A stretch of DNA of 64,000 nt from an uncultured Methanosarcinales archaeon (GTDB lineage: Archaea > Nanobdellota > Nanobdellia > Woesearchaeales > GW2011-AR4), in contig CAYTDO010000003.1 in the NCBI GenBank assembly GCA_964436645.1, positions 939 through 64,938 of the forward strand, read 5' to 3'. Shown here in pieces: positions 9,785 to 52,614 of the stretch (position 1 is its first letter; the number at the start of each line of letters is the position of its first letter). The notes under the pieces were generated by a model. That model was not told where the DNA came from. It did no database searches and was given only the letters and a program-made list of their open reading frames with translations. The position numbers and the translations under genes are program-made.

Positions 9785-10219
9785 TTATCCGAGGCCTGTG
9801 CTTCCAAAACCGCCTTCATTCCTGGTTGTCTCGCTTAATTTGCTGACTTCTTCAAATACAGCTTCTTCAACTCTTGCGAAAACAAGCTGGCCAATCTTTT
9901 TTCCCTTCTCGACCTTGTAGTCTTGATTGCTTAAGTTAATCAAAGGAACTTTAATTTCACCCCTATAACAGCTGTCTATGGTTCCAACACAATTCGCATG
10001 GCTTATTCCATGATTGATGGCTAGGCCGCTTTTTGGCCTTATCTGGCCTTCATAACCATAAGGTATTTCGAGTTTTAGGCCTGTAGATATCAGTTTTCTT
10101 TCCATAGGCTTCAATGTGCATTCCTCTGCTGCGTATAAGTCAACACCAGAGTCGCCTTTGTGCGCGTATGAAGGAGTGGGCACGTCTGCAAGCTTCTGTA
10201 TCTTTATTTTTAAGGCCAT
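9785..10219 (-). CDS. dut: dUTP diphosphatase
   Basis: dUTPase motifs AHKGDSGVDLYA, IRPKSGLAI, GTIDSCYRGEI and C-terminal RNEGGFGSTG. Confidence 0.9.
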   Translation of the reverse strand: MALKIKIQKLADVPTPSYAHKGDSGVDLYAAEECTLKPMERKLISTGLKLEIPYGYEGQIRPKSGLAINHGISHANCVGTIDSCYRGEIKVPLINLSNQDYKVEKGKKIGQLVFARVEEAVFEEVSKLSETTRNEGGFGSTGLG

Positions 10220-10307
10220 TTTAAAATTAAGTTATATTTCAAAGGGTCCTATTTAAAGAATGTTAAATTTGAAAGTATATGTTGGAGAATTATGTCGCTC
10301 ATAGAAA

Positions 10308-10500
10308 GGGTTGTTGCGGAAGTCGGTGCTTATGTGTATTTGCCACGCAGACAGCTCCGCAGGATTGGGAAAAGCGACCTGAGCACACTTTAGTGTGCGA
10401 GGTTGAGAGGCACTCAAAAACCAAAAAAGATTTTCGGTTTCCACTGCGTGGACAATGTTAAGGCCCCGCATAAGCACGAATTAGGTTTTCGCAACAATCC
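10308..10500 (+). ncRNA. GC-rich rod-like structured element (candidate ncRNA such as SRP RNA, or a MITE with ~30-bp imperfect terminal inverted repeats)
   Basis: The 5' end GGGTTGTTGCGGAAGTCGGTGCTTATGTG pairs with the 3' end CGCATAAGCAC...GGTTTTCGCAACAATCC. There are nested helices (CCACGCAG/CTGCGTGG) and internal hairpins (GCACACtttaGTGTGC, TTGAGaggcaCTCAA). No credible ORF. GC is far above the local background. Confidence 0.4.
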
Positions 10501-10508
10501 AAATAAAA

Positions 10509-11015
10509 TCAAGAATCTTGCCTGAAATTGAGCAAAGATTCTATATGATAATAGACAATCCTGCCGCTTTCCGCGCTCAGCTTCATGTTTAAGGCATTGA
10601 AAGAATGAGTTATGAGTGTAAGGTTCCAGATATCATCATAAGTATCCAGATTTTGGAGTATTGCAATTGTCTTTGATGCTGTTTCTCCGGGATATTTTTC
10701 TTTCTTGAACCTATTGGCCAGCTCCAAGATATCCTTAAATTCCAGATTTACATTCTCTAAGGATATATGCCTTACTTCTGTCTCTGGCCTTTTGAAGACC
10801 TCGTCTTCCTGCTCCATCCTGATGTTATCTCCATCTACTGTGAAAGAGACCATCTTCTCCTTTGATTTCAAGTAAAAGCCAAATTGCCACGGGTCTTCCG
10901 TTTTTTCTTCAAAAATTTTCAGGGCATATGAGAAAAAGTTTTCCGGATTTTGAGCATTCCATTCCTTGAAAGCGCCGCTTCCCTTTAATTTTTCGAATGT
11001 TTCTTTGAAGTCCAT
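10509..11015 (-). CDS. hypothetical protein (168 aa)
   Basis: Clean ORF with no recognisable motif. Confidence 0.4.
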   Translation of the reverse strand: MDFKETFEKLKGSGAFKEWNAQNPENFFSYALKIFEEKTEDPWQFGFYLKSKEKMVSFTVDGDNIRMEQEDEVFKRPETEVRHISLENVNLEFKDILELANRFKKEKYPGETASKTIAILQNLDTYDDIWNLTLITHSFNALNMKLSAESGRIVYYHIESLLNFRQDS

Positions 11016-34888: not shown

Positions 34889-34898
34889 TAAAAAAGGT

Positions 34899-35010
34899 GG
34901 ACAGCTTCCCTAGTTTCCCATGCATTAACACAGTACAGCTAGGAACGGAGGCTTGTTTAACTTCGGAGTTCGGAATGGGATCCGGTGGAACCATGCCCCT
35001 ATGGCCGTCC
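34899..35010 (-). rRNA. 5S ribosomal RNA
   Basis: The minus-strand sequence GGACGGCCAUAGGGGCAUGGUUCCACCGGAUCCCAUUCCGAACUCCGAAGUUAAAC...GGGAAGCUGUCC shows 5S hallmarks (CCGAAC, AGUUAA loop region, helix I pairing GGACGGC/GCUGUCC). Confidence 0.85.
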
Positions 35011-35033
35011 AGCAAATAAGGAGTAATTCTTGC

Positions 35034-52120: not shown

Positions 52121-52300
52121 CTAATCTCTATCGTTTGCTCCTGACAATAGAAAAAGTGTATGTTTATAAACTCTCTCAGGCCTGAATTTCTTCTTGAAAT
52201 TGAGCAAAATTGCCTGAACCTCCAAAATCAGTGCAATCATAGCCTACTCCTGTAAGCCGATAATTCAGTTTTTAGGTATTTTAAATATTTTGCATAGATG

Positions 52301-52509
52301 GGCTTCCATGAAAATGCAGGTTAGCAGCCTTGAGGCCGAGCCCCTTGCTAAGCACATCTAAAGAGTCCGAGGGGCCGCTCCGTGAGATGCGACGAGCGGC
52401 TTTTTAGCTCGCCGCCCGCAATTCACCGGACCTGACCGATGCTTTCAGCCCAGATGCAATGGGCTCGAAGCTGCTAACCCGTAGCGTAGCGGAGATTTTC
52501 ATGGAAGCC
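52301..52509 (+). mobile_element. intact ~209-bp GC-rich structured MITE-like element: perfect 15-bp terminal inverted repeats and perfect 9-bp target-site duplication
   Basis: TIR ggcttccatgaaaat (52301-52315) and attttcatggaagcc (52495-52509). TSD gcatagatg at 52292-52300 and again at 52510-52518. The interior is about 58% GC with a nested terminal helix GGTTAGCAGC/GCTGCTAACC and further helices (CCGAGCCC/GGGCTCG, CATCT/AGATG, CCGCTC/GAGCGG). A second copy lies at about 4746-4970. Confidence 0.7.
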
Positions 52510-52614
52510 GCATAGATGAGAACAAAGCCTAGTTACGGAGATTTTAAACAAACTTTTCCACAACCTTTTTAAACCGCTATTCGTAACTTTATACTCTAAC
52601 TAAAGGTAAGTTTC

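What the first reader, a model, noticed from the sequence alone, without database searches (positions are those of the whole stretch)
10308..10500. GC-rich ~190-nt rod-like structured element with ~30-nt imperfectly complementary termini and no ORF
This is a sharp GC spike in an AT-rich spacer between dut and a hypothetical gene. Its 5' and 3' termini are long imperfect reverse complements (GGGTTGTTGCGGAAGTCGGTGCTTATGTG versus CGCATAAGCACGAATTAGGTTTTCGCAACAATCC). They enclose CCACGCAG/CTGCGTGG and three internal hairpins. The architecture fits either a housekeeping rod-like RNA (SRP RNA has not been located in this window) or another MITE with long TIRs. I could not find the conserved SRP helix-8 AGCA/GNAR motif or the RNase P P4 sequence by eye.
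Basis: seen in the sequence. Interest (0 to 1): 0.55.

Follow-up and report, generated by a model that had tools for sequence, protein, structure and literature searches.

The report
New multicopy structured RNA in Woesearchaeota
The GC-rich 193-nt rod between dut and a hypothetical gene is real, is not SRP RNA, RNase P RNA or a classical MITE, and belongs to an apparently undescribed, multi-copy, slowly evolving structured RNA family found patchily in Woesearchaeota (DPANN) archaea; its function is unknown.

Summary
Window 10308-10500 folds into a long terminal rod (-75 kcal/mol, z = -5.2) at 49% GC, inside a spacer that is otherwise 22% GC. No Rfam 15 family matches it, even at E<=10, so the SRP and RNase P readings fail.

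DNA-pattern scans, a covariance model and a translated-ORF search recovered 12 distinct copies plus one decayed copy. All lie in Woesearchaeota-type contigs, with up to 2-3 copies per 15-50 kb. Shared parts are closing helices P1 and P2, an invariant junction (GUAAAUUGCCAAU; CGACCUGAG-hairpin-CGAAGUUGAGAAGCC-UCUAAGGCC) and variable hairpin tips.

- Thirteen base pairs show compensatory changes.
- G.U pairs outnumber A.C 42 to 8, which marks the + strand as the folded strand.
- Orthologous copies differ three times less than their mostly coding flanks.
- Seven of 12 copies have a TATA box about 35 nt upstream of P2.

The outer "TIR" is the least conserved part, and no target-site duplication or partner IS was found. 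However, six syntenic relatives lack the element at the window site, so the family disperses.

Best reading: an independently transcribed, trans-acting structured RNA gene of a dispersing family. Function is unknown. The window copy carries two private expansions.

The parts
10308..10500 (+). Whole element: one copy of the multicopy structured RNA family. The window copy is 193 nt; canonical copies are about 152 nt.
   Evidence: CM R1 scores it 129 bits, E about 1e-30, covering model positions 1-152. Fold z = -5.2.
10273..10281 (+). TATA-like box AAGTATATG, about 27 nt upstream of P1. This is an inferred promoter. It lies in a block that is also conserved in syntenic loci lacking the element.
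   Evidence: The spacing fits the archaeal TATA-to-start distance of about 23-27 nt, which is established knowledge. Transcription was not tested.
10308..10324 (+). P1 5' strand (GGGUUGUUGCGGAAGUC). This outer closing helix is the most variable helix of the family.
   Evidence: helix 1 has 6 of 12 pairs with changes on both sides and 86% of cells paired.
10326..10336 (+). P2 5' strand (GUGCUUAUGUG). It follows the unpaired G at 10325.
   Evidence: helix 2 is 98% paired, with G-C to A-U and A-U to G-C compensatory changes.
10337..10345 (+). J2/3 junction strand UAUUUGCCA. The family consensus, UAAAUUGCCAAU, is nearly invariant elsewhere.
   Evidence: Alignments.
10343..10350 (+). Window-specific helix, 5' strand CCACGCAG. 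It pairs with 10444-10451.
   Evidence: Absent from all other copies.
10355..10364 (+). Small P3-like hairpin CUCC-GCA-GGA ('type B' variable region).
   Evidence: The pairing is not consistently supported across copies.
10375..10405 (+). P4: the invariant base CGACCUGAG / CGAGGUUG, with tandem G.A pairs and a bulged C, plus a covarying distal hairpin GCACAC-UUUA-GUGUGC.
   Evidence: helix 3 is 100% paired and 5 of 11 pairs changed on both sides.
10406..10415 (+). J4/5 (AGA) and the P5 5' side (GGCACUC). The family consensus is AGAAGCC(A/C)UC.
10416..10458 (+). 43-nt insertion private to the window copy, in the P5 loop. It holds the hairpin AAACC...GGUUU (10418-10440) and CUGCGUGG (10444-10451).
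   Evidence: Alignment gap in all other copies; fold.
10459..10465 (+). P5 3' side, the invariant UAAGGCC.
   Evidence: helix 4.
10467..10477 (+). P2 3' strand CGCAUAAGCAC.
10478..10483 (+). Conserved asymmetric bulge GAAUUA. In short-P1 copies the homologous bases pair with the 5' strand instead.
10484..10500 (+). P1 3' strand GGUUUUCGCAACAAUCC. It ends 8 nt from the stop codon of the convergent 168-aa gene.

Best explanation
The element is one copy of a structured-RNA gene family that I could not find described in Rfam 15 or in the searchable literature. The family is multi-copy and occurs in Woesearchaeota (DPANN).

The + strand is probably transcribed as a small RNA of about 190 nt. This is inferred from the TATA-like box at 10273-10281. 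The RNA folds into a long closing rod (P1 and P2, with a conserved asymmetric bulge). The rod holds together a multi-helix junction whose unpaired nucleotides are almost invariant across the family.

I infer that this invariant junction is the working part, a binding platform for a protein, RNA or ligand, and that the RNA acts in trans. The rod would protect and present the two ends. The tips of P4 and P5 are dispensable and accept insertions: 43 nt in the window copy and 57 nt in others.

The family spreads to new intergenic sites by duplication or insertion, and the window copy is a recent arrival in the hyp168-dut spacer. The conserved structure, the folded strand, purifying selection, multi-copy status and insertion polymorphism are shown. 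Transcription, action in trans and the binding partner are inferred.
For: 1. Family membership. Twelve distinct copies and one decayed copy were found, using a terminal-repeat pattern in genome contigs, a core pattern in metagenome contigs, CM R1 and a profile of spurious minus-strand ORFs.

2. Conserved structure. 95.3% of cells are paired, against 31-43% when partners are slid by 1-3 columns. Thirteen pairs changed on both sides. None of 500 shuffles reached the observed covariation score.

3. Folded strand. G.U cells number 42 and A.C cells 8. The fold is stronger on + than on -.

4. Selection. Orthologous copies differ at 7 of 604 positions, while their mostly coding flanks differ at 374 of 10,880 (Fisher p = 5e-4). 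The junction is invariant although paralogues are only about 70-75% identical overall.

5. Own promoter. A TATA-like box ends 31-39 nt upstream of P2 in 7 of 12 copies. In four or five of these a shared TTTTG motif follows it.

6. Tolerated expansions. Insertions occur only at the hairpin tips.

7. Not a 5'-UTR element. The gene downstream of the element is convergent in 6 of 12 copies.
Against: - No expression data exist for any copy.
- The promoter enrichment is weak as a count: 7 of 12 against 3 of 12 in the opposite-strand control, p = 0.11.
- The predicted start would fall inside outer P1 in some canonical copies.
- The window's TATA-like box lies in a block that is also conserved where the element is absent.
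- U-tracts within the P1 3' strand could terminate archaeal transcription early.
- The G.U/A.C asymmetry would also fit folded single-stranded DNA. Its cells are not independent, because related sequences share changes.
- The distribution is patchy. There is no copy in 22 kb of a Woesearchaeote whose EF-2 is 83% identical, and only one copy in this 64-kb window. That pattern suits a dispensable or selfish element as well as a useful gene.
- No binding partner or target has been identified.
Confidence: 0.5

Rival explanations
1. It is a non-autonomous mobile DNA element (MITE-, REPIN- or PATE-like). A transposase encoded elsewhere would move the unit, possibly as folded single-stranded DNA. The conserved core would be that enzyme's recognition site, and any RNA made from it would be incidental.
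For: - Copies are multiple and dispersed, in both orientations relative to their neighbours.
- The window site is empty in six syntenic relatives, including one whose flanking protein is 83% identical.
- The L7Ae-upstream copy is absent from the syntenic site of a related genome.
- Two copies on one contig are 99% identical over 176 nt but have different flanks.
- One copy has a decayed 5' half (L031).
- The elements sit tightly against gene ends.
- G.T wobble pairs are also tolerated in DNA hairpins (own knowledge).
Against: - The outer inverted repeat is the most variable part and is missing or unpaired in L023b, L034b, L041 and L048. In a transposase-driven MITE the termini are the best-conserved part.
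- No consistent target-site duplication or target motif appears at the 12 junctions.
- In MAG ARS102 the terminal-repeat pattern matched only the element copies themselves.
- The one Y1 transposase seen nearby (L049) has unrelated hairpins of its own.
- The element evolves more slowly than its coding flanks.
- Conserved upstream promoter-like motifs argue for a function beyond transposition.
Confidence: 0.27
2. It is a cis-acting element at gene 3' ends, analogous to bacterial REP or ERIC elements. The stable rod would stop or stabilise transcripts of the adjacent gene or genes, or insulate convergent or tandem transcription units.
For: Eight of 12 copies have a stop codon within 23 nt of one end. 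In the window the gap is 8 nt from the hyp168 stop. The rod also forms on the minus strand, though more weakly.
Against: - The orientation relative to the adjacent gene is mixed. The covariation and G.U pattern select one strand regardless of the neighbour's orientation.
- A terminator or stabiliser would not need some 60 invariant unpaired nucleotides.
- Several copies (L034a, L048, L049) lie next to gene starts, not gene ends.
- In genomes with short intergenic gaps, proximity to a stop codon is expected by chance.
Confidence: 0.12
3. It is a divergent housekeeping RNA: SRP RNA, RNase P RNA or a 5S-like RNA.
For: Rod-like architecture and a GC-rich island in AT-rich DNA. There is a short resemblance between ACCUGA...GAAGUUGAGAAGC and the 5S rRNA helix III/loop B motif, seen by eye when the element was compared with the window's 5S gene.
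Against: - No SRP, RNase P or 5S model matches at E<=10 in three different copies.
- The element is multi-copy, with up to 3 copies in about 60 kb.
- It is absent from related genomes at syntenic sites.
- I saw no helix-8 GNAR/AGCA motif and no CR-I/CR-V P4 motif by eye.
- A genuine 5S gene is present elsewhere in the window.
Confidence: 0.02
4. It is a small self-cleaving or otherwise catalytic RNA that travels with a mobile unit, as hammerhead and twister ribozymes often do.
For: A multi-helix junction with invariant unpaired nucleotides, closed by a long P1. Copies are many and dispersed, and the peripheral tips are variable. This profile is typical of small ribozymes (own knowledge).
Against: No match to any Rfam ribozyme family. 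By eye the core only partly resembles hammerhead (CUGA.G/CGAA) or hairpin-ribozyme (AGAA) motifs and lacks their defining nucleotides. No cleavage-site evidence exists.
Confidence: 0.07

Closest known systems
Archaeal and bacterial MITEs (for example Sulfolobus SM1-SM4; Correia and ERIC elements in bacteria)
   Same: Short, non-coding, multi-copy and intergenic. The 5' and 3' ends are complementary, giving a fold-back rod. Related genomes differ in presence or absence at a given site.
   Different: The termini are the least conserved part and are missing in several copies. There is no target-site duplication and no partner IS. A 95-nt non-palindromic core is invariant and shows strand-specific RNA-type covariation. 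A promoter-like motif lies upstream. The element evolves more slowly than neighbouring genes.
REP/REPIN elements mobilised by RAYT (Y1) transposases, and IS200/IS605-derived PATEs
   Same: Extragenic, often beside stop codons, strand-specific single-strand folding, and no target-site duplication.
   Different: There is no repeated REP-type palindrome unit or conserved flanking tetranucleotide. The ends pair with each other rather than forming separate subterminal hairpins. The only Y1 transposase seen nearby has unrelated hairpins.
Y RNAs and similar small RNP scaffold RNAs
   Same: About 100-200 nt. The 5' and 3' ends form a long stem with a conserved bulge and conserved stem sequence. The interior is more complex, and there are several paralogues per genome.
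   Different: No sequence or CM similarity: the Rfam Y RNA families gave no hit. No Ro/TROVE protein was examined. The resemblance is architectural only, recalled from memory.
Archaeal SRP RNA (Rfam Archaea_SRP) and RNase P RNA (RNaseP_arch, RNaseP-T)
   Same: A GC-rich structured island in an AT-rich archaeal genome, with a terminal helix joining the 5' and 3' ends.
   Different: No CM hit at E<=10. I saw no helix-8 or P4 motifs by eye. Multi-copy, patchy and recently inserted.
Orphan structured RNA motifs found by comparative genomics of intergenic regions (for example Weinberg et al. 2017, PMC5737381)
   Same: Defined only by covariation and conservation, with unknown function. Found in metagenomic lineages.
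   Different: This family is not in Rfam 15. No paper containing its core sequences was found.

Membership tests
Archaeal SRP RNA | Match to the Rfam SRP covariance models | tested here: not met
   No hit at gathering score or at E<=10 in the window copy or in canonical copies.
Archaeal SRP RNA | Helix 8 with a GNAR tetraloop and the AGCA/AGG symmetric loop; helix 6 | tested here: not met
   By eye on the sequence and alignment. The nearest string, CAGGAUUGGGAAAAGCG, does not give the register of the helix-8 non-canonical pairs, and it lies in the family's variable region.
Archaeal SRP RNA | Single-copy, universally present housekeeping gene | tested here: not met
   Two or three copies per 15-50 kb in carrier contigs. 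Absent at syntenic sites of relatives.
RNase P RNA (types A, M, T) | Match to the Rfam RNase P models; CR-I and CR-V forming P4 | tested here: not met
   No hit at E<=10. GGAAGUCGG only superficially resembles CR-I, and no P3 or P4 topology is present.
MITE (transposase-mobilised miniature inverted-repeat element) | Many dispersed non-coding copies | tested here: met
   Twelve distinct copies and one decayed copy in Woesearchaeota contigs.
MITE (transposase-mobilised miniature inverted-repeat element) | Terminal inverted repeats conserved among copies, as the transposase binding sites | tested here: not met
   Outer P1 is the most variable helix (86% paired, 6 of 12 pairs changed on both sides). 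It is absent or unpaired in L023b, L034b, L041 and L048.
MITE (transposase-mobilised miniature inverted-repeat element) | Target-site duplication flanking each copy | tested here: not met
   No shared or duplicated flank at the 12 junctions. The AT-rich flanks make very short duplications impossible to exclude.
MITE (transposase-mobilised miniature inverted-repeat element) | An autonomous IS with matching ends in the same genomes | tested here: inconclusive
   In MAG ARS102 the terminal pattern matched only element copies. Whole genomes of the carriers could not be scanned.
MITE (transposase-mobilised miniature inverted-repeat element) | Insertion polymorphism (empty sites in relatives) | tested here: met
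   The hyp168-dut spacer lacks the element in L001, L002-4, L005, L007, L010 and L039. The L7Ae-upstream site is empty in L052.
REP/REPIN-RAYT | Short REP palindromes in inverted pairs, plus a RAYT gene flanked by REPs | tested here: not met
   The arms are not themselves palindromic. The Y1_Tnp gene in L049 is flanked by unrelated hairpins.
5S rRNA | Match to Rfam RF00001 | tested here: not met
   The true 5S gene lies at 34896-35012 (80.8 bits). The element gives no 5S hit at E<=10.
New Woesearchaeota rod-and-junction RNA family (defined here) | Full-length match to CM R1: P1, P2, P4 and P5 plus the invariant junction strands | tested here: met
   The window copy scores 129 bits, E about 1e-30, over model positions 1-152. 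It was one of the 9 seed sequences, so its score is partly circular. Seven copies outside the seed score 98-151 bits.
New Woesearchaeota rod-and-junction RNA family (defined here) | Transcribed as a discrete + strand RNA | not testable with these tools
   No expression data are available. The only indirect evidence is strand asymmetry and promoter-like motifs.

The most novel reading that the evidence does not exclude
These are a new class of protein-free, promoter-carrying RNA genes that spread autonomously or semi-autonomously through Woesearchaeota genomes. Their invariant junction would be a new ribozyme, or the RNA subunit of a still unidentified RNP, such as a mobility, defence or host-interaction machine of these symbiotic archaea. 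On this reading it is neither a passive sRNA nor a transposon relic.
Probability: 0.15. Interest if true: 0.85.

Novelty: new variant of a known kind. Interest (0 to 1): 0.6.

Why it matters
DPANN archaea have tiny genomes and are almost unexplored for non-coding RNA. This family meets the criteria normally used to nominate a functional RNA class:
- about 150 nt long,
- present in many copies,
- supported by covariation,
- more conserved than the neighbouring protein genes,
- absent from Rfam.

It also behaves like a dispersing element. If it is a trans-acting RNP RNA or a ribozyme, it adds a lineage-specific RNA function to organisms thought to be stripped down. If it is mobile, it would be an unusual mobile unit whose conserved part is an RNA core rather than its ends. 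In either case the covariance model gives a direct handle for metatranscriptome and biochemical tests. It also helps annotation, because gene callers have called spurious 32-43-aa ORFs across three of the copies.

Tried and rejected
- **Rfam.** Searched at gathering score and at E<=10 on three copies. Only chance hairpin matches appeared: rseX, SprD, mir-548 and MIR403.
- **tRNA or split tRNA.** ARAGORN finds nothing in the window. I saw no T-loop or D-loop motifs.
- **Coding potential.**
  - The ORFs on both strands, including a 36-37-aa ORF MRKLP...RPRISTN, are open in some copies but broken in others, the window copy included.
  - Profile searches with the translated peptide found only three spurious ORFs.
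- **K-turn, C/D box and H/ACA.** P4 has CUGA and tandem G.A pairs but no 3-nt bulge. There is no C box and no ACA at the right place (by eye).
- **Hammerhead, hairpin and twister ribozymes.** Only partial string resemblances, with no CM hits.
- **Integron attC and the bulge-helix-bulge processing motif.** The geometry does not fit (by eye).
- **Viral origin.** Two core patterns gave no hit in IMG/VR, and blastn against phage genomes gave none.
- **Link to the IS200-like Y1 transposase in L049.** Its hairpins are unrelated.
- **Pairing of the conserved single strands with the window's 5S rRNA.** No better than shuffled controls.
- **Pseudoknot between the P5 loop and the 3' bulge (AUCUAA/UUAGAU).** Perfect in L016 but not maintained in other copies (by eye).
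- **Common neighbouring gene.** None. Neighbours seen were dut, adk, ribD, L7Ae, RNase HII, translin, CTP synthase, a 150-aa protein next to a 1041-aa gene, and membrane proteins.
- **Literature.** Full-text searches for the core sequences and for DPANN structured RNAs found nothing relevant.

Full report
**1. The observation**

On the + strand it folds into a terminal rod with three parts:
- P1, 10308-10324 paired with 10484-10500;
- an unpaired G at 10325, opposite the bulge GAAUUA at 10478-10483;
- P2, 10326-10336 paired with 10467-10477.

The rod encloses CCACGCAG/CUGCGUGG and several hairpins. The minimum free energy is -75.0 kcal/mol, against -53.4 +/- 4.2 for dinucleotide shuffles (z = -5.2). 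The minus strand folds less well (-65.4, z = -3.9). The element is 49% GC, the rest of the spacer 22%, and the window 37%.

It sits between dut (9785-10219, minus strand; PF00692) and a 168-aa protein with no Pfam domain (10509-11015, minus strand). tmk and a TYW1-type radical-SAM gene lie nearby. Short ORFs cross the element, but they are not conserved (section 4). The window holds no second copy, by blastn or by the family covariance model with filters off.

**2. Known RNA families**

Rfam 15 finds only a 5S rRNA gene in the window, at 34896-35012. With permissive filters and E<=10, neither the window copy nor two canonical relatives match SRP, RNase P, 5S or any ribozyme or riboswitch family. 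Only chance hairpin hits appear. ARAGORN finds no tRNA.

**3. Synteny shows an insertion**

The 168-aa protein has homologues labelled Nanoarchaeota or Woesearchaeota. The gene order TYW1 - hyp168 - dut - tmk is kept in all contigs retrieved. The hyp168-dut spacer, however, varies in length:

| Locus | Spacer |
|---|---|
| L007, L008/L009, L010 | 32-65 nt |
| L005 | 101 nt |
| L002-L004 | 116 nt |
| L001 | 288 nt, filled by an unrelated AT-rich sequence |

In L039, where hyp168 is 83% identical, the 48 nt next to the stop codon are unrelated to the element. A block upstream of dut (TATTTAAAGAATGYTAAATTTGAAAGTATA) is conserved in all these loci. The window sequence diverges from them just after this block. 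The simplest reading is that the element was gained recently in the window lineage.

**4. A family exists**

- A pattern built from both arms (TTGTTGCGRAA N2-12 GTGCTTATG) hit two contigs of the marine MAG 'archaeon ARS102' among 185,579 species genomes. One hit had both arms 146 nt apart.
- A pattern from the conserved 3' block hit nine further metagenome contigs and one chance match.
- A covariance model built from nine sequences found more divergent copies on the same contigs.
- Gene callers sometimes call spurious ORFs across the element. I therefore searched a profile of the conserved minus-strand peptide (NSCLC[GE]AL[DE]GFSTS). This recovered three such ORFs, and their contigs held four more distinct copies.

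The total is 12 distinct copies of 133-206 nt, plus one copy whose 5' half has decayed (L031). Carrier contigs are dense with copies: two in 7.4 kb (L023), two in 14 kb (L034), and three in about 60 kb of one population (L048, L049, L051). EF-2 encoded on a carrier contig is 87% identical to proteins named 'Candidatus Woesearchaeota archaeon'.

Frames are not preserved among copies, so the element is non-coding.

**5. Anatomy of the family**

- P2 (11 bp) and the base of P4 are almost invariant.
- Outer P1 is variable. In four or five copies it is short, different or unpaired. In those copies the 'bulge' bases (G/U)AAUU pair directly with the 5' strand.
- The nearly invariant strands, most of them unpaired, are GUAAAUUGCCAAU, (A/U)CGACCUGA(G/A)C, G(C/U)GAAGUUGAGAAGCC(A/C)U(C/A)UAAGGCC(C/U)CG and, in most copies, GAAUU.
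- The region around P3 comes in two or three sequence types, and its pairing is unresolved.
- Hairpin tips accept insertions: 57 nt in the P4 loop of L048 and L049, and 43 nt in the P5 loop of the window copy.
- The window copy also has a private helix, 10343-10350 with 10444-10451, that ties J2/3 to this insert. It is therefore an expanded, somewhat divergent member (129 bits, against 165-185 for canonical copies).

**6. Evidence for a selected single-strand structure**

On 15 distinct sequences, 95.3% of cells form standard pairs, against 31-43% when the 3' partners are slid by 1-3 columns. Thirteen pairs changed on both sides, and none of 500 shuffles reached the observed covariation score.

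The distal P4 stem reads GCACAC/GUGUGC, GCAUAC/GUAUGC, GAAAUAC/GUAUUUC, GCAAAAC/GUUUUGC or ACAAAU/AUUUGU in different copies. P2 shows G-C to A-U and A-U to G-C exchanges.

G.U cells outnumber A.C cells 42 to 8. This marks the + strand as the folded strand. Two caveats apply. The cells are not phylogenetically independent. The asymmetry would also suit single-stranded DNA.

**7. Evidence for function**

In four orthologous pairs with measurable divergence, the element differs at 7 of 604 positions. The flanks, which are mostly protein-coding, differ at 374 of 10,880 (1.2% against 3.4%; Fisher p = 5e-4).

Seven of 12 copies have a TATA-like octamer ending 31-39 nt upstream of P2, and six of them end within 33-37 nt. 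In four or five of these a shared TTTTG motif follows it. The opposite-strand control has three of 12 (p = 0.11), so this support is only suggestive.

With the usual archaeal spacing (TATA centred near -26, which is established knowledge), the RNA would start a few nucleotides before short P1 stems. In some canonical copies it would start inside outer P1. In the window the TATA-like box at 10273-10281 predicts a start near 10303-10306, just before P1. That box, however, belongs to the block that is also conserved in loci without the element.

Six of 12 copies are followed by a convergent gene, which argues against a 5'-UTR riboswitch.

**8. Evidence for dispersal**

- The window site is empty in relatives (section 3).
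- The copy upstream of L7Ae (L034b/L036b) is missing from the syntenic spacer of a Woesearchaeote with 83% identical EF-2. That genome shows no copy in 22 kb, even with filters off.
- L048 and L049 lie on one contig. They are 99% identical over 176 nt, but their flanks diverge. This indicates recent duplication or gene conversion.
- No consistent target-site duplication, target motif or partner IS was found.
- An IS200-like Y1 transposase 3.4 kb from the L049 copy has unrelated hairpins.
- Two core patterns and a blastn search found nothing in viral collections.

**9. Interpretation**

SRP RNA and RNase P RNA are excluded.

The classical MITE model fails on its defining features. The termini are not conserved, and there is no target-site duplication or partner IS. 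The model's two correct predictions, multiple copies and empty sites, are nevertheless real.

The combination that has to be explained is this:
- an invariant non-palindromic junction;
- strand-specific covariation;
- expansions tolerated only at the hairpin tips;
- slower evolution than the neighbouring genes;
- promoter-like motifs upstream.

The best fit is a family of independently transcribed structured RNA genes that duplicate into short intergenic gaps (confidence about 0.5). The junction would be the functional, partner-binding core. What it binds or does is not known.

Rival readings are a non-autonomous mobile element recognised as a folded single strand (about 0.27), a REP-like cis element at gene ends (about 0.12) and a small ribozyme (about 0.07).

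**10. Novelty**

The family is absent from Rfam 15. Full-text searches for its core sequences and for DPANN structured RNAs found no description. In kind it resembles other orphan structured RNAs and dispersed structured repeats. It is unusual in combining gene-like conservation with element-like dispersal in DPANN archaea.

Noticed in passing
window 52298-52516: A second GC-rich rod-like island of about 219 nt lies in an intergenic gap. Its closing stem is GGGCTTCCATGAAAAT/ATTTTCATGGAAGCC, with an inner stem GGTTAGCAGCC/GGCTGCTAACC. MFE is -95.3 (z = -4.6) on + and -102.9 (z = -5.3) on -. There is no Rfam hit at E<=10, and it is not related to the 10308 family. The minus strand carries GGUCAGGUCCGG, which is reminiscent of the 5' side of SRP helix 8.
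   Followed up: partly
L001 3505-3792: In a relative whose hyp168 is 66% identical, the same hyp168-dut spacer holds a different, AT-rich 288-nt insert with three hairpins. One example is GCCAGACATAA...TTATGTCTGGC. It is unrelated to the element, so this spacer seems to be a repeated landing site.
   Followed up: no
window 10240-10290, and the homologous positions in L001, L002 and L005: The block TATTTAAAGAATGYTAAATTTGAAAGTATA upstream of dut is conserved in all syntenic loci. It is probably the dut promoter or regulatory region. Its TATA-like part may drive the element in the window.
   Followed up: partly
window 1-64000: ARAGORN finds no tRNA gene in 64 kb. The only Rfam hit at gathering score is a 5S rRNA gene at 34896-35012 (-).
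   Followed up: no
L048 2622-7855: An archaeal contig carries a cluster of MEP-pathway genes (Dxr, IspD/IspF, a GHMP kinase, IspH/LytB) next to a polyprenyl synthase. The contig is archaeal by its S6e, L37ae, eIF2-gamma, prefoldin and S15/S13N genes. This is unusual for archaea, which normally use the mevalonate route.
   Followed up: no
L049 13330-14020: An IS200-like element: a 165-aa Y1 transposase (PF01797) flanked by its own imperfect palindromes. It lies 3.4 kb from a family copy but shares no sequence with it.
   Followed up: partly
L016 7778-7888, and homologous positions in L033, L034a and L036b: A 36-37-aa ORF (MRKLPIQRFPKDW...RPRISTN*) runs from the conserved ATG in P2 to the TAG in the GAATTAG bulge. 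It is open in four copies but interrupted in L023a, L032, L023b and the window copy, so it is probably a by-product of nucleotide conservation.
   Followed up: partly
window 10375-10412 compared with 34896-35012: The element's ACCUGAG...CGA(A/G)GUUGAGA(A/G)GC resembles the 5S rRNA helix III/loop B motif (CCGAACUCCGAAGUUAAAC in the window's 5S). The 5S covariance model does not match the element, so this is probably chance.
   Followed up: partly
P0015-P0017 (L041 5391-5522, L048 10001-10114 and others): Public annotations call spurious 32-43-aa 'proteins' on the minus strand of the element. Such ORFs can be used to find non-coding RNA families through protein databases.
   Followed up: yes
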